From Escherichia phage LF82-41, in sequence record PV660463: a stretch of 64,000 nt of DNA; one strand, written 5' to 3'. Positions 43,415-46,607 of this stretch are shown here, in pieces. The notes beneath the pieces are model-generated. The model was not told the origin of the DNA, ran no database searches, and saw only the letters and a program-made list of their open reading frames with translations. A program made the position numbers and the translations under genes. Numbering within the stretch: position 1 is the stretch's first letter; the number at the start of each line of letters is the position of its first letter.

Positions 43415-44371
43415 TTATTTGAAAGGTTTTACCATATGAAAGTTTTGTTTAAAACGTTTTACATAATCGTCATGTCCTAAGCTTTGGTACATACTTACAA
43501 CTTTGCTGTAGTTTTCCCAAGCGTATTCACGGAACCAGCCTGACGTGATTGAAGTACAGACCTTTTCAAGAGCCATCATAAAACTATCACGTGGATGGAT
43601 TTCAAAGTTATTAGGAATCTGAGAACGTTCTAACGCTAGTACACATGATTCTTCGTATACGCCAGCCAATTTGACCATTTCCGGTAATGATTCGAACTTC
43701 TCGCGTGAGGTCATGACTTCAGAACCATCTTTCATATAAAATGTATACGCTGGACGGTCCGTTAGTGCAATGGCTTCGTGAATAGTATCATGGTCATACG
43801 TATAGATGTCATCTTTAAAGAATGCGCTTTTAGAAGTGTCAAGAACTGGGTGAGCATAGTTCAAGGTTTCTTTCTGGCGTTTCAGCATAATTTCATTAAG
43901 TTCATCGTTCAGTGTAACACCTTTACCACGAAGATACTGAATATGGTTCATAGTCTTTAAAAAGAATGGATTATTTTTCTTGAAACGATGGGACATCTTA
44001 ATTGCAAGGCACATCTCAGGAGTTGCCCAGTAAAACCCGTTCAAACGGTCTTTAGTCAAATTTTTCTTGGCGTATTTTAAAAGGTCATAAGAAGACGTGA
44101 AATCTTCAGGAGTGAGTTCACCGACTAATTCACGGACATTAGTGATTGCCGGAACAATATATGCTTCAAAATGAGTTTCGCGCCCATTATGGAAGCATTT
44201 GAAAACTTGGACATCAGGGTTATCTTGGTGAACATATACACCCATCATTTGATTTTTGAATGCATTCCAAGAACCTTGGTCCGCAATAAAGTCCCAATCA
44301 CTATTTTTAATAGCGCTAGAATCAATAAGACCGTGATAGTGAAGTGCACGAGAACCAATAACTAACATCAT
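43415..44371 (-). CDS. hypothetical protein (318 aa)
   Basis: ORF; weak NTase-like GS...DxD spacing at N-terminus. Confidence 0.7.
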   Translation of the reverse strand: MMLVIGSRALHYHGLIDSSAIKNSDWDFIADQGSWNAFKNQMMGVYVHQDNPDVQVFKCFHNGRETHFEAYIVPAITNVRELVGELTPEDFTSSYDLLKYAKKNLTKDRLNGFYWATPEMCLAIKMSHRFKKNNPFFLKTMNHIQYLRGKGVTLNDELNEIMLKRQKETLNYAHPVLDTSKSAFFKDDIYTYDHDTIHEAIALTDRPAYTFYMKDGSEVMTSREKFESLPEMVKLAGVYEESCVLALERSQIPNNFEIHPRDSFMMALEKVCTSITSGWFREYAWENYSKVVSMYQSLGHDDYVKRFKQNFHMVKPFK

Positions 44372-44399: not shown

Positions 44400-44651
44400 T
44401 TAAATTTCACGACATGCGATATTATATTCATCCCAGAGGTCATCATGTGAAGCCTCTACCAATGGAACGATTGTACCGTTTATGTCTTCATTATAAGGGC
44501 AAATTGTACAGTGCGCATCTTCGAATCGGATGCCTTTGTGTTCAGATTTTTTATAACGCATATCGAATATCTTTGCAAACTTTTCACGAGTAATGGTTTT
44601 ACCAACCACTTTGGTTCCGATACTTTCGTAATAAATCATTGTGGACTCCAT
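44400..44651 (-). CDS. hypothetical protein (83 aa)
   Basis: ORF. Confidence 0.5.
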   Translation of the reverse strand: MESTMIYYESIGTKVVGKTITREKFAKIFDMRYKKSEHKGIRFEDAHCTICPYNEDINGTIVPLVEASHDDLWDEYNIACREI

Positions 44652-44654
44652 TTG

Positions 44655-44699
44655 TTTTGATAGGACTACTATAACATAGCCCTATCTTGTTGTAAACTG
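44655..44699 (-). promoter_or_regulatory. early-promoter/stem-loop cassette (PeSL-like)
   Basis: ttgataggactactataacatagccctatc...tgtaaactg. Confidence 0.5.
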
Positions 44700-44701
44700 T
44701 T

Positions 44702-44899
44702 TTAGCAAGAATAACTAGATGATACCCAGCCTTGAACAGTGATACTATTGTGGGATAATGAGATCGCGTCCTGGAGATTCAGACCTGCGTTATCTTCAAT
44801 CCATAATGTAACTTCTTCGCGTTCTTCTGTTGCAATTTGGAACAGGTTTTCTAGAGCAGCTACTGCGGTACGTACAGCACAATCTAATTCACGAGACAT
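44702..44899 (-). CDS. small protein, member of tandem family with C-terminal GWVSSSxxC
   Basis: 65 aa ending QGWVSSSYSC. Confidence 0.55.
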   Translation of the reverse strand: MSRELDCAVRTAVAALENLFQIATEEREEVTLWIEDNAGLNLQDAISLSHNSITVQGWVSSSYSC

Positions 44900-44908
44900 A
44901 TTGTTTCC

Positions 44909-45181
44909 TTAGCAAGTGTGAGAAGATGCGACCCAACCACCAGTTTCGAGGCTCAGGTTGTAGTCGTATTGGTAAACGTCAGCCCATTCGGCATAACCGT
45001 TTTTTGTACAACGTTCAAGATCGGCTTTAAGATGTCCGGGTGAATGATAGGTTCCACCCATACCATAAGCTGGGTACAAGTTGAATGTTGTGTTTTGTTT
45101 ATCAGCAATTTCTTTGGCAGCCTCAATAGCGGCATAGATTTTTGCTACAGCTTCAGCCAGTTCGGTTTGTTCTTTAGACAT
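44909..45181 (-). CDS. small protein, member of tandem family with C-terminal GWVASSxxC
   Basis: 90 aa ending GGWVASSHTC. Confidence 0.55.
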   Translation of the reverse strand: MSKEQTELAEAVAKIYAAIEAAKEIADKQNTTFNLYPAYGMGGTYHSPGHLKADLERCTKNGYAEWADVYQYDYNLSLETGGWVASSHTC

Positions 45182-45190
45182 AATGATTCC

Positions 45191-45496
45191 TTAGCACAAC
45201 GCAGAAGACGAAACCCAAGCACCTTCAGTAATAACGTATCCATTACCTTCACGCTTAACATCGCCGCCATTATTTTCAATTTCATCTTTCATCCACTGGG
45301 ATACGATTTCACCCTTAGGATAATAAGTACGACCGCTACCATAATCACCTACAGAAAATGATACGGCATATTGGTCTGCGATCTTTGTTGCTTCTTCTTC
45401 GATACGTTCAGCTTGATTTAGAAGTTTATAAATTGCATCTGAAGCGGATTTGGCATCATTAAATTCTGGTACTTTAATTTCAATAATCTTACTCAT
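45191..45496 (-). CDS. small protein, member of tandem family with C-terminal AWVSSSxxC
   Basis: 101 aa ending GAWVSSSALC. Confidence 0.55.
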   Translation of the reverse strand: MSKIIEIKVPEFNDAKSASDAIYKLLNQAERIEEEATKIADQYAVSFSVGDYGSGRTYYPKGEIVSQWMKDEIENNGGDVKREGNGYVITEGAWVSSSALC

Positions 45497-45594
45497 TTTC
45501 TACATTCCTTAATAAAGTTTTCGATTGTTTCATTTTCACGTCTAGCTAGGAGTTCATTATAACTAATCATTTGAGAAGCGTAAACAGCATAAAT

Positions 45595-46017
45595 TCAGTT
45601 CAGGCTTTTGCATCTTATTTCCTTAACGAATTCCATAGCTTCTTCATATTCATACTTTTTAACAGCTTCATCATACTGAGCTTGGGCTTTTGCGCACTGA
45701 ACTTTCCATTCTCTTAATCTGGCTCTGTGATGACGGCCTTGGTGCCAATATCCCACCCAATTAATAGGCATTAATAAAAACGGTACAATAAGTGGTGCGA
45801 CGAACATTAATGAAAATGCTGCATCAGACGATATAACTTCACTAGAATCTAAAACAGCTCCTATAATCATAAAGATTAAAAATGCTAAAGCTAAAATAGG
45901 GCCAAATAGTACTTCATTTGGGATTAATTTACGCTTGTATTCATACGCCCAGGGCTTACTTGGCATGTATAGGGTTGGCTTTGACATATTCTCTACATTC
46001 CATAATAAATTGCTCAA
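45595..46017 (-). CDS. membrane protein (start uncertain)
   Basis: 140 aa ORF with two hydrophobic segments; overlaps upstream ORF so true start probably internal. Confidence 0.5.
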   Translation of the reverse strand: MSNLLWNVENMSKPTLYMPSKPWAYEYKRKLIPNEVLFGPILALAFLIFMIIGAVLDSSEVISSDAAFSLMFVAPLIVPFLLMPINWVGYWHQGRHHRARLREWKVQCAKAQAQYDEAVKKYEYEEAMEFVKEIRCKSLN

Positions 46018-46558: not shown

Positions 46559-46607
46559 GTTAACTCCTTTATTATCCAAAAGGAGGACCGGAGTCCTCCG
46601 TATTATT

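What the first reader, a model, noticed from the sequence alone, without database searches (positions are those of the whole stretch)
44702..45496. Tandem triplet of small paralogous proteins with a conserved C-terminal G-x-W-V-S-S-S-x-x-C tail
Three adjacent ORFs (65, 90, 101 aa) have divergent bodies but end in QGWVSSSYSC, GGWVASSHTC and GAWVSSSALC. A conserved extreme C-terminal motif ending in Cys on otherwise diversifying proteins suggests a shared processing, modification or targeting signal (e.g. protease recognition, acylation or packaging tag). I do not recognise this family.
Basis: seen in the sequence. Interest (0 to 1): 0.65.

Follow-up and report, generated by a model that had tools for sequence, protein, structure and literature searches.

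The report
Cys-tailed small proteins paired with nucleotidyltransferase
Three adjacent small phage genes belong to a large, unannotated, apparently phage-only family. Nearly every member ends in the same eight residues (W-x-S-S-S-x-x-Cys) and sits just upstream of one predicted nucleotidyltransferase gene, which suggests an undescribed two-part system whose function is still unknown.

Summary
Three minus-strand ORFs (44702-44899, 44909-45181, 45191-45496) are paralogs ending in W-V-[S/A]-S-S-x-x-C. This pattern occurs only three times in the six-frame translation of the 64-kb window, each time directly before a stop codon.

The window is a Mosigvirus (RB69-like T-even phage). The family is large: at least 173 clusters at 50% identity and 424 at 90%. 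It has no Pfam, NCBIfam, PADLOC or PDB match and no fold relative. Of 153 representatives, 137 end exactly in W-x-[S/A/P]-S-S-x-x-Cys. Members are small (median 89 aa) and acidic.

The new finding is near-obligate synteny. In 73-75 of 80 diverse loci fetched through the downstream gene (window 43415-44371, DUF7277+DUF7275), 1-6 tail-bearing genes lie on the same strand within about 2.7 kb upstream. In the reverse test, 25 of 25 informative loci showed the pairing.

My best inference is that the tail is the element this enzyme recognises and probably nucleotidylates. This step is not shown. The packaging-tag, protease-site, RiPP and chance readings are not supported.

The parts
45191..45496 (-). 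Paralog 1 (101 aa), the first gene of the array. It is the RB69ORF139c+138c ortholog and matches phrog_899. It has an N-terminal helix, the block F-S-V-G-D-Y-G-S-G-R-T-Y-Y-P, a beta-hairpin, and the tail A-W-V-S-S-S-A-L-C.
   Evidence: (AF2 pLDDT 89.2)
44909..45181 (-). Paralog 2 (90 aa). It is the RB69ORF137c ortholog and matches phrog_899. It has the central block A-Y-G-M-G-G-T-Y-H and the tail G-W-V-A-S-S-H-T-C.
44702..44899 (-). Paralog 3 (65 aa). It is the RB69ORF136c ortholog and matches phrog_4882. This minimal version has a helix, a short beta region and the tail G-W-V-S-S-S-Y-S-C. In T-even relatives it is always the last copy of the array, nearest the partner gene.
45191..45217 (-). 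Tail codons of paralog 1 (W-V-S-S-S-A-L-C plus stop)
44909..44935 (-). Tail codons of paralog 2 (W-V-A-S-S-H-T-C plus stop)
44702..44728 (-). Tail codons of paralog 3 (W-V-S-S-S-Y-S-C plus stop)
43415..44371 (-). Partner gene (318 aa), the RB69ORF134c ortholog, with DUF7277 (residues 2-101) and DUF7275 (120-305). It is a predicted Pol-beta-type nucleotidyltransferase with invariant G6-S7, D25, D27, E69, H128, H194, D195, H198 and C272.
44400..44651 (-). Intervening 83-aa ORF (phrog_3723, unknown function) between the array and the partner gene. It is not conserved in divergent loci, so it is probably not part of the module.
45556..45584 (-). Sigma-70-like promoter match (TTTACG-17-TATAAT, 10 of 12) about 60 nt upstream of paralog 1. 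This is a consensus match only.
44668..44696 (-). Sigma-70-like promoter match (TTTACA-17-TATAGT with an upstream TG) between the array and the 83-aa ORF. This is a consensus match only.

Best explanation
The three ORFs are ancient paralogs of a phage-restricted family of small acidic proteins. Each has an N-terminal helix, a small beta unit and an invariant C-terminal W-x-S-S-S-x-x-Cys. They work as a two-component module with the Pol-beta-type nucleotidyltransferase (DUF7277+DUF7275) encoded just downstream in the same orientation.

**Proposed mechanism**
- The tail is the element through which each paralog engages the enzyme.
- Most likely the enzyme docks on the Trp/Cys-flanked tail and transfers a nucleotide monophosphate to one of the tail serine hydroxyls, as MntA does to HepT.
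- The modification would switch on, switch off or mark a set of early-expressed accessory effector proteins.

**Status of each step**
- Shown: paralogy, family-wide invariance of the tail, amino-acid-level selection, near-obligate same-strand synteny with the enzyme gene, and the NTase fold and catalytic signature of the partner.
- Inferred: physical interaction, the tail as the contact site, covalent nucleotidylation, early expression, and any biological role.

I put about 0.75-0.8 on a functional partnership with the NTase of some kind. I put about 0.3-0.35 on the specific claim that the tail is recognised and nucleotidylated.
For: **1. Tail invariance**
- 137 of 153 representatives end in W-x-[S/A/P]-S-S-x-x-C. 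W, S(-4) and C are invariant, and 77 of the 137 have no other Cys.
- Both Ser codon families are used at the invariant positions.

**2. Synteny from the enzyme side**
- 80 IMG/VR loci were fetched through a DUF7275 alignment, with partner identity down to 39%.
- 73 have a profile hit, and 75 have a profile hit or a motif ORF. All are on the partner's strand, and nearly all end within about 2.7 kb upstream.
- Copy number is 1-6 per locus, and the median gap to the partner gene is 354 bp.
- 118 motif-ending ORFs lie in that upstream zone, against 1 of 5,321 ORFs elsewhere in the same loci.

**3. Synteny from the small-protein side**
- 27 loci were fetched through the internal YGMGGTYY block. 25 have the partner gene downstream within 1.7 kb.
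- The other two contigs end 94 and 887 bp after the small gene.
- Independent metagenomic contigs of 75-371 kb show the same pairing.

**4. Specificity of the linkage**
- No other gene family co-occurs comparably: the next best is found in 16 of 55 divergent loci.

**5. The partner looks like an active NTase**
- pLDDT is 92.3.
- G-S, D-x-D and E are invariant in 91-92 of 92 proteins aligned at those positions.

**6. Weak covariation**
- Partner C272 is Cys in 84 of 84 tail-associated proteins. It is Ile or Val only in three distant homologs that have no tail-bearing neighbour.

**7. Precedent**
- A minimal NTase that adenylylates its adjacent small partner protein is known: HepT/MntA (PMC7641770 abstract).

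**8. Repeated motif**
- Some members repeat the W-x-S-S unit in tandem before the terminal copy, as would be expected of a repeated acceptor or recognition site.
Against:
- In the AF2 model, W-V-S is a beta-strand of the fold and only the last residues are less confident. Part of the motif may therefore be conserved for structural reasons.
- One family member on a 305-kb contig has no DUF7275 gene within 6 kb. Five of the 80 partner loci have no tail gene.
- A sub-lineage carries one extra residue after the Cys, so a free Cys alpha-carboxylate is not essential.
- The C272 covariation rests on three phylogenetically distant sequences.
- Gene order in large virulent phages can be conserved without direct interaction.
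Confidence: 0.33

Rival explanations
1. The partner is an RNA or tRNA 3'-end nucleotidyltransferase, working for repair or modification as RlaP, CCA-adding enzymes or MenT do. The small acidic proteins are non-covalent regulators, specificity subunits or antitoxin-like inhibitors. Their tail would plug or dock at the active site, perhaps mimicking an acceptor end, without being modified.
For: - The best fold matches are the tRNA-modifying MenT toxins (the MenT function comes from PMC10435456 and PMC7450476 abstracts).
- RNA-repair genes lie near the module in some lineages: Rnl1 and PNKP, Rnl2 and a metallophosphoesterase, and a polynucleotide kinase.
- tRNA genes lie within 6 kb in 20 of 80 loci, in the window's relatives, and in Gordonia phage Miskis.
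- RlaP shows that phage and bacterial Pol-beta NTases near RNA ligases add 1-2 NMP to damaged RNA 3' ends.
- The small proteins are strongly acidic, with a median net charge of -9, which is compatible with nucleic-acid mimicry.
Against: - RNA-repair neighbours occur in only 6-14 of 80 loci, all in one jumbo-phage lineage.
- There is no PF10127 (RlaP) or PF08843 (AbiEii) hit, even at E<=0.1, in 41 partner homologs.
- This reading does not explain why 1-6 diverged paralogs are kept, or why Ser-Ser and a terminal Cys are invariant.
- Distant partner homologs manage without tail proteins.
Confidence: 0.3
2. The tail is a structural, metal-binding or thiol-dependent oligomerisation element of an autonomous small domain. 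Examples would be a terminal Cys that bridges a metal or forms a disulfide between paralogs. The proteins would act on host targets on their own, for instance as acidic mimics or anti-defence factors. Adjacency to the NTase gene would reflect only co-regulation or a shared accessory-gene island.
For: - AF2 places W-V-S in a beta-strand packed into the fold.
- 77 of 137 members have a single Cys, a pattern typical of intermolecular sites.
- The locus lies in a variable accessory region. T4 lacks it, and a Gad2 anti-defence gene lies nearby in one locus.
- The RB69 reference carries a frameshifted copy, which suggests the gene is dispensable in the laboratory.
Against: - Strand, order and proximity to the NTase gene are kept across hosts, genome sizes and partner identity down to 39%, while every other neighbour changes.
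- Conservation of this kind in phage genomes usually marks functional coupling.
Confidence: 0.2
3. This is RiPP-like maturation. The Ser-Ser-Ser-x-x-Cys-COOH end would be dehydrated and cyclised (lanthionine, or aminovinyl-cysteine as at the S-x-x-C end of epidermin), with the tandem small genes acting as precursors and the neighbour as the tailoring enzyme.
For: - The S-x-x-C-COOH spacing equals that of the epidermin AviCys ring (own knowledge).
- Several small precursor-like genes sit next to one enzyme gene.
Against: - No LanB/LanM/LanKC, LanD flavoprotein, YcaO or radical-SAM gene appears among the Pfam-annotated neighbours of five independent contexts or among the recurrent neighbour clusters.
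- The proteins are predicted to be folded domains of 65-120 aa, not leader-core peptides.
- The partner has an NTase fold, not a known RiPP tailoring fold.
Confidence: 0.05
4. This is the first reader's specific proposal: the tail is a capsid-packaging, protease-recognition or acylation signal, analogous to the capsid-targeting sequence of T4 internal proteins.
For: - The shared terminal motif on small paralogs in a T-even phage resembles the IPI/IPII/IPIII logic (own knowledge).
- Glu is frequent at positions -10 and -11.
Against: - The motif is C-terminal, and the N-termini (MSKIIEIK, MSKEQTEL, MSRELDCA) do not resemble the T4 CTS (own knowledge of that signal).
- No conserved Leu/Ile-x-Glu cleavage context precedes the tail.
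- The family also occurs in non-T4-like phages, including genomes of about 99 kb and 150 kb.
- The conserved neighbour is an NTase, not a structural gene, protease or acyltransferase.
Confidence: 0.04
5. This is chance resemblance, or a DNA-level repeat, at the ends of unrelated ORFs.
For: None were found.
Against: - The pattern occurs only three times in the window, all at ORF ends.
- At least 173 family clusters carry the same end.
- Codon usage at the invariant residues is synonymous and mixed.
Confidence: 0.01

Closest known systems
HepT/MntA type VII toxin-antitoxin (a minimal Pol-beta NTase that poly-adenylylates its adjacent small partner protein; PMC7641770)
   Same: - A small Pol-beta-fold NTase is encoded next to a small protein partner.
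- NMP transfer goes to a protein hydroxyl, which is the mechanism proposed here.
- It is a two-gene module.
   Different: - The partner here has no HEPN domain and no R-x(4-6)-H motif. It is a 65-120 aa acidic helix-plus-beta protein with an invariant C-terminal W-x-S-S-S-x-x-C.
- It is present in 1-6 copies.
- The module was found only in phage-type contigs, including virulent T-even phages, not in bacterial chromosomes.
- The enzyme carries a large conserved C-terminal domain (DUF7275).
MenT/AbiEii (DUF1814) NTase toxins with MenA/AbiEi antitoxins (PMC10435456, PMC7450476, PMC11375011)
   Same: - They share the NTase lobe followed by a helical lobe.
- Each is encoded next to a small regulator gene.
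   Different: - There is no PF08843 sequence match.
- The small proteins have no AbiEi/MenA-type domain.
- Here the small genes are upstream and multi-copy.
- There is no evidence of toxicity.
[quoted passage not shown]
   Same: - It is a Pol-beta NTase common in large phages.
- In one lineage the module sits beside Rnl1 and PNKP.
   Different: - There is no PF10127 match.
- An RNA-ligase neighbour occurs in only 6 of 80 loci.
- In the texts read here, RlaP is not described as having tail-bearing small-protein partners.
Capsid-targeting sequence of the T4 internal proteins IPI/IPII/IPIII (own knowledge)
   Same: It is a short shared terminal motif on otherwise diverged small proteins of T-even phages.
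   Different: - That signal is N-terminal, is cleaved by the prohead protease, and is linked to head assembly.
- The motif here is C-terminal, is linked to an NTase gene, and is also found outside T4-like phages.
C-terminal S-x-x-C ends of AviCys-containing lanthipeptides such as epidermin (own knowledge)
   Same: - It has a Ser-rich stretch followed by a terminal Cys at the same spacing.
- Multiple small genes sit beside an enzyme gene.
   Different: No dehydratase, cyclase or LanD gene is present. The proteins are predicted to be folded. The enzyme has an NTase fold.
PHROG families phrog_899 / phrog_4882 (small proteins) and phrog_2141 (partner)
   Same: The window proteins are members, with E values from 5e-19 to 1.6e-150.
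   Different: All three PHROGs are listed as 'unknown function'. Neither the tail nor the linkage is recorded in any text found here.

Membership tests
Small-protein family defined here (phrog_899 / phrog_4882) | C-terminal W-x-[S/A/P]-S-S-x-x-C at the end of the protein | tested here: met
   All three window ORFs have it, as do 137 of 153 family representatives.
Small-protein family defined here (phrog_899 / phrog_4882) | Position immediately upstream of a DUF7275 gene, on the same strand | tested here: met
   The window array at 44702-45496 is followed by 43415-44371, with one 83-aa ORF in between. The family-wide figures are 73-75 of 80 loci and 25 of 25 loci.
Pol-beta-type nucleotidyltransferase superfamily (partner protein) | h-G-[GS] motif followed by the [DE]-x-[DE] metal ligands and a third carboxylate | tested here: met
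   G6-S7, D25 and D27 are invariant. E69 is E or D in 91 of 92 aligned proteins.
Pol-beta-type nucleotidyltransferase superfamily (partner protein) | NTase fold | tested here: met
   [not shown]
Pol-beta-type nucleotidyltransferase superfamily (partner protein) | Nucleotidyl-transfer activity | not testable with these tools
   This needs biochemistry.
MenT / AbiEii (DUF1814, PF08843) | Sequence match to PF08843 | tested here: not met
   Only DUF7275 and DUF7277 hit: at E<=1 for the window protein and at E<=0.1 for 41 homologs.
MenT / AbiEii (DUF1814, PF08843) | Adjacent AbiEi/MenA-type antitoxin | tested here: not met
   None of 139 small-family members matches any consistent Pfam family.
RlaP (PF10127) | Sequence match to PF10127 | tested here: not met
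RlaP (PF10127) | Neighbouring RNA ligase gene | tested here: not met
   Rnl1 occurs in 6 of 80 loci and Rnl2 in 0 of 80. None is in the window locus.
HepT/MntA type VII TA | Partner is a HEPN RNase with the R-x(4-6)-H motif | tested here: not met
   No HEPN Pfam hit appears in the three ORFs or in 139 members.
T4 internal proteins (CTS-tagged) | N-terminal capsid-targeting sequence ending in a prohead-protease site | tested here: not met
   The N-termini MSKIIEIK, MSKEQTEL and MSRELDCA show no CTS-like sequence. The comparison rests on my own knowledge of the T4 CTS.
Lanthipeptide / AviCys RiPP precursors | Co-located dehydratase, cyclase or LanD decarboxylase | tested here: not met
   None appears among the Pfam-annotated neighbours in five contexts, and none appears among the recurrent neighbour clusters.
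Lanthipeptide / AviCys RiPP precursors | S-x-x-C at the free C-terminus | tested here: met
   This is a resemblance only.
Known anti-defence or defence proteins (PADLOC-DB) | Match to any model | tested here: not met
   The only hit is one chance-level match (E=0.01, 12.5 bits).

The most novel reading that the evidence does not exclude
This is a phage-specific protein-tagging system. A dedicated Pol-beta-type nucleotidyltransferase (DUF7277+DUF7275) would recognise a portable C-terminal W-x-S-S-S-x-x-Cys tag and covalently nucleotidylate it, or use its Ser as a primer. The tag is carried by a family of 1-6 diversified small acidic effector proteins. This would be a new kind of virus-encoded post-translational switch, used early in infection, possibly in counter-defence or in control of host RNA and tRNA.
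Probability: 0.25. Interest if true: 0.85.

Novelty: new variant of a known kind. Interest (0 to 1): 0.7.

Why it matters
**Scale of the unknown**
- The small family has 424 clusters at 90% identity.
- The partner has more than 2,200 clusters and is found in 733 of 50,697 sequenced phage genomes.
- Hosts include E. coli, Klebsiella, Aeromonas, Pseudomonas and Acinetobacter.
- Several of these phage groups are considered for therapy (general knowledge, not checked here), yet no function, name or paper is attached to the family.

**Why the tail stands out**
- An eight-residue end that is invariant across such divergence, always terminal, and coupled to one enzyme gene is an unusually clear handle on unannotated phage genes.

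**What it makes testable**
- It predicts a specific protein-enzyme pair, specific residues to mutate (W, S-S, the terminal C; D25/D27 and C272 in the enzyme), and a specific mass shift to look for.

**What would follow**
- If the enzyme modifies the tail, this would be a new viral post-translational modification system.
- If instead the small proteins regulate an RNA-directed NTase, it would add a new branch to phage RNA-repair and tRNA-conflict biology.

Tried and rejected
1. **Curated libraries.** Pfam, NCBIfam, PADLOC and PDB sequence searches of the three ORFs, and of a 7-sequence profile, gave nothing above chance. Pfam on all 139 aligned members gave only scattered single hits.
4. **Scanning IMG/VR with a degenerate DNA pattern of the tail.** All 120 returned loci were chance matches without an ORF, so this was a dead end. 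It was replaced by the YGMGGTYY-block alignment.
5. **Covariation of partner C243 with tail presence.** Rejected, because Tyr replaces it in 21 tail-associated proteins. Only C272 tracks the tail, and the support for that is weak.
6. **Treating the partner as RlaP or AbiEii.** There was no sequence match.
7. **RNA-repair or tRNA gene context as a general rule.** It holds only in some lineages.
8. **Literature searches.** Searches for the RB69 ORF names, PHROG ids, DUF numbers and descriptive terms found nothing on this family. The QueC/QatB paper was read and found irrelevant.
9. **The intervening 83-aa ORF as a module member.** It is not conserved in divergent loci.
Full report
**1. What is in the window**

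The window is a Mosigvirus, an RB69-like T-even phage. A 4.5-kb stretch around the finding is 98-99% identical to phages FP43, ATK47 and JK42. The locus lies between the lysozyme e/nudE genes and the tRNA cluster.

- 44702-44899: 65 aa, ending QGWVSSSYSC
- 44909-45181: 90 aa, ending GGWVASSHTC
- 45191-45496: 101 aa, ending GAWVSSSALC

Each is preceded by an AAGGAA ribosome-binding sequence. For the second and third genes this sequence overlaps the TGC-TAA end of the gene before. A sigma-70-like promoter match lies about 60 nt upstream of the first gene. That is a consensus match only.

**2. Is the observation more than chance?**

Yes, on four counts.
- Pairwise BLASTP supports paralogy: E=2e-6 for 90 vs 101 aa, and 4e-4 and 1e-3 for the 65-aa protein.
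- The pattern W-x-[SAP]-S-S-x-x-C occurs exactly three times in the six-frame translation of all 64 kb. Each occurrence is directly followed by a stop codon.
- The three tails differ at synonymous sites.
- In 107 distinct homologous tails, the invariant serines use both TCN and AGY codons, Cys uses both of its codons, and all three stop codons occur. Selection is therefore on the peptide, not on a DNA repeat.

**3. The family**

*Searches.* A word-seeded search found only seven relatives, but all full-length ones kept the end. An exhaustive profile search of 1.84 billion representatives found 173 clusters at 50% identity with E<=1e-3. In almost all of them the last profile position coincides with the last residue of a 70-120 aa protein. 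A second search with a 139-sequence profile found 424 clusters at 90% identity. None carried a Pfam domain or an informative name.

*Tail statistics*:
- 137 of the 153 listed sequences end in W-x-[S/A/P]-S-S-x-x-C.
- W(-7), S(-4) and C(0) are invariant, and S(-3) is present in 134 of 137.
- Gly is common at positions -8 and -9.
- 77 of the 137 have no other cysteine.
- Median length is 89 aa and median net charge is -9.
- Six sequences carry one extra residue after the Cys, so the free Cys carboxylate is not strictly required.

*Other features.* A second conserved block (I-A-D-E-x-G-x-x-F...Y-G-M-G-G-T-Y-Y-P) precedes a variable acidic linker. Some members repeat W-x-S-S in tandem before the terminal copy.

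*Not unrelated bodies.* With the last ten residues removed, 170 of 183 tail-bearing ORFs still form one BLASTP cluster. The 65-aa window protein is a minimal version without the central block.

*Structure.* AF2 gives a confident model of the 101-aa protein (pLDDT 89.2). It has a long N-terminal helix, a small sheet, W-V-S in the last strand, and a short, less confident terminal turn.

*Distribution.* The family occurs in T-even-like phages of Escherichia, Klebsiella, Enterobacter, Serratia, Yersinia and Aeromonas. It also occurs in Pseudomonas phiPsa-type phages (about 99 kb), in coliphages of about 150 kb, and on metagenomic contigs of up to 371 kb. A Tegunavirus has four adjacent copies at the same locus. 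No relative was found in one genome from each of 185,579 bacterial and archaeal species.

**4. The new finding: a conserved partner gene**

*First sign.* Neighbourhood look-ups for diverse members on long contigs repeatedly showed a DUF7275 (usually also DUF7277) protein just downstream. In the window this is the 318-aa ORF at 43415-44371 (RB69ORF134c). It is separated from the array by one non-conserved 83-aa ORF.

*Test from the enzyme side.* I fetched 80 IMG/VR loci with an alignment of DUF7275 proteins, with identity to the window protein from 98% down to 39%.
- 73 loci contain at least one profile hit. 75 contain a profile hit or a motif ORF.
- All are on the same strand as the partner, and nearly all end within about 2.7 kb upstream of it.
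- There are 1-6 copies per locus, and the median gap to the partner gene is 354 bp.
- In the 70 loci with full flanks, 118 motif-ending ORFs lie in that upstream zone. Only 1 of 5,321 ORFs elsewhere has the motif.

*Test from the small-protein side.* I fetched 27 loci through the internal YGMGGTYY block alone. 25 have the partner gene downstream within 1.7 kb. The other two contigs end 94 and 887 bp after the small gene, so they are uninformative.

*Specificity.* In the 55 most divergent loci no other family comes close. The next best, a metallophosphatase, is present in 16 loci.

*Exceptions.* One family member on a 305-kb contig has no partner within 6 kb. Five partner loci have no tail gene. 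The most distant partner homologs, in Streptomyces, Gordonia, Vibrio and roseobacter phages, have no tail-bearing neighbours.

*Cellular genomes.* The partner was found only on five MAG contigs that look like binned phage. Three of these again have tail ORFs upstream.

*Well-known relatives.* T4 has neither gene at this locus.

**5. What the partner is**

- It has more than 2,200 clusters, all carrying PF23940 (DUF7275), nearly all also PF23942 (DUF7277), and no credible name. It occurs in 733 of 50,697 phage records.
- It has no sequence match in the PDB.
- Its N-terminus carries the Pol-beta nucleotidyltransferase signature: G6-S7, then D25-x-D27, then E69. These are invariant or nearly so in 91-92 of 92 proteins aligned at those positions.
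- AF2 with a 41-sequence alignment gives pLDDT 92.3.
- The C-terminal DUF7275 domain has invariant H128, H194, D195 and H198, and a K-V-C272-T-S-I-T-S-G-W motif.
- C272 is Cys in all 84 tail-associated partners. It is Ile or Val only in three tail-less distant homologs. This is suggestive, but it rests on three phylogenetically confounded sequences. C243 does not covary.

**6. How it most likely works**

*Shown:*
- A family-wide invariant C-terminal peptide under amino-acid-level selection.
- Near-obligate, oriented linkage to a gene for a probably active Pol-beta NTase.
- Variable copy number (1-6), with a conserved order of paralog types in T-even phages.

*Inferred:* The tail is the element through which these proteins engage the enzyme.

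*Favoured mechanism.* I favour O-nucleotidylation of a tail serine for three reasons.
- The enzymes nearest in fold all transfer NMP to hydroxyl groups.
- The serines are invariant and sometimes repeated.
- HepT/MntA provides a precedent for a minimal NTase that modifies its neighbouring small protein (PMC7641770, abstract seen).

*Confidence.* I put about 0.33 on this specific mechanism. I put about 0.75-0.8 on the weaker statement that the small proteins and the NTase work together.

*Main rival (about 0.3).* The enzyme may act on RNA or tRNA 3' ends, as MenT, CCA-adding enzymes or RlaP do. The acidic small proteins would then regulate or target it without being modified. RNA-repair neighbours (Rnl1, PNKP, Rnl2, metallophosphoesterases) and tRNA genes support this, but only in some lineages: 6-14 and 20 of 80 loci respectively.

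*Other rivals.*
- A purely structural, metal-binding or oligomerisation role for the tail, with only co-regulation: about 0.2.
- RiPP-like maturation: about 0.05. No tailoring enzymes are nearby, and the proteins are predicted to be folded.
- A packaging or protease signal: about 0.04. There is no N-terminal CTS, no cleavage context and no structural neighbour.
- Chance is excluded.

**7. Comparison with what is known**

The module works most like an NTase-plus-small-partner pair (HepT/MntA; MenT/MenA), but it fails the membership tests for each. It has no HEPN, no DUF1814, no AbiEi-type partner and no PF10127. Nothing about the tail, the family or the linkage was found in 8 million full texts under the RB69 ORF names, the PHROG or DUF identifiers, or descriptive terms.

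I rate it a new variant of a known kind (a nucleotidyltransferase with a dedicated small-protein partner). There is roughly a one-in-four chance that it is a new viral protein-tagging system.

**8. Verdict**

A shared functional tail is likely, but the bodies are not unrelated, and the specific signals proposed have no support.
- Interest: 0.7.

Noticed in passing
window 45497-45600 (compare L001 5587-5836): Relative to Shigella phage JK42 and RB69, the window lacks about 240 bp. The deletion removes most of the e.3 homolog, a predicted membrane protein. Only its 3' remnant is left between the array and the e.4 homolog at 45595-46017.
   Followed up: yes
L249 1185-1491 (RB69 reference, ORF139c + ORF138c); window equivalent about 45293: In the RB69 reference genome the ortholog of the 101-aa paralog is split by a 1-nt insertion, and its tail reads WVSSPALC (invariant Ser to Pro). 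It is either a pseudogene in the lab strain or a sequencing error. Either way, this suggests this paralog is dispensable in culture.
   Followed up: yes
L003 2239-3262 (Yersinia phage fHe-Yen9-01, Tegunavirus): There are four adjacent paralogs at the same locus. One (74 aa) carries an internal D-W-L-S-S-S-C and a terminal I-W-E-S-S-S-C. Another ends ...W-V-S-S-T-Q-E-C-N, with one residue after the Cys.
   Followed up: partly
L240 4094-4393, L241 4100-4390, L243 2860-3153: Distant partner homologs in Streptomyces, Gordonia and Vibrio phages lack tail-bearing neighbours. Instead they are flanked by a different small acidic protein of about 97 aa (a shared ...Y..S..G....EV.P..K.IT.Y-like C-terminal region). 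This may be an alternative partner family.
   Followed up: no
window 43415-44371, residues 270-279 of the product: The partner's most conserved motif, K-V-C-T-S-I-T-S-G-W, has the same Cys-to-Trp spacing (six residues between them) and the same Ser/Thr content as the tail W-x-S-S-S-x-x-C read backwards. This may be coincidence. It is mentioned only as a lead for complex modelling.
   Followed up: no
L007 11139-12071: A Gad2 (PF26128) anti-defence gene lies about 4 kb downstream of the module on one metagenomic contig and is absent from the otherwise syntenic L006. This suggests the module sits in an accessory or counter-defence gene neighbourhood.
   Followed up: no
L004 689-3478, L010 1456-4249: In a jumbo-phage lineage (contigs of 355-371 kb) the module lies 2.5-4 kb downstream of T4-type RNA ligase 1 and polynucleotide kinase-phosphatase. 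An ATP-dependent DNA ligase and metallophosphatases lie further on.
   Followed up: partly
window 46582-46599: A strong bidirectional terminator-like hairpin (GGAGGAC-CGGA-GTCCTCC) lies between the e.5 and e.6 homologs. It matches the terminator annotated in phage ATK47.
   Followed up: no
P0257: One GenBank record (Klebsiella phage vB_KpnM-VAC36) labels the partner ortholog 'prohead assembly scaffold protein', and one MAG record labels it as HdeA-like. Both look like annotation errors, given the NTase signature and fold.
   Followed up: no
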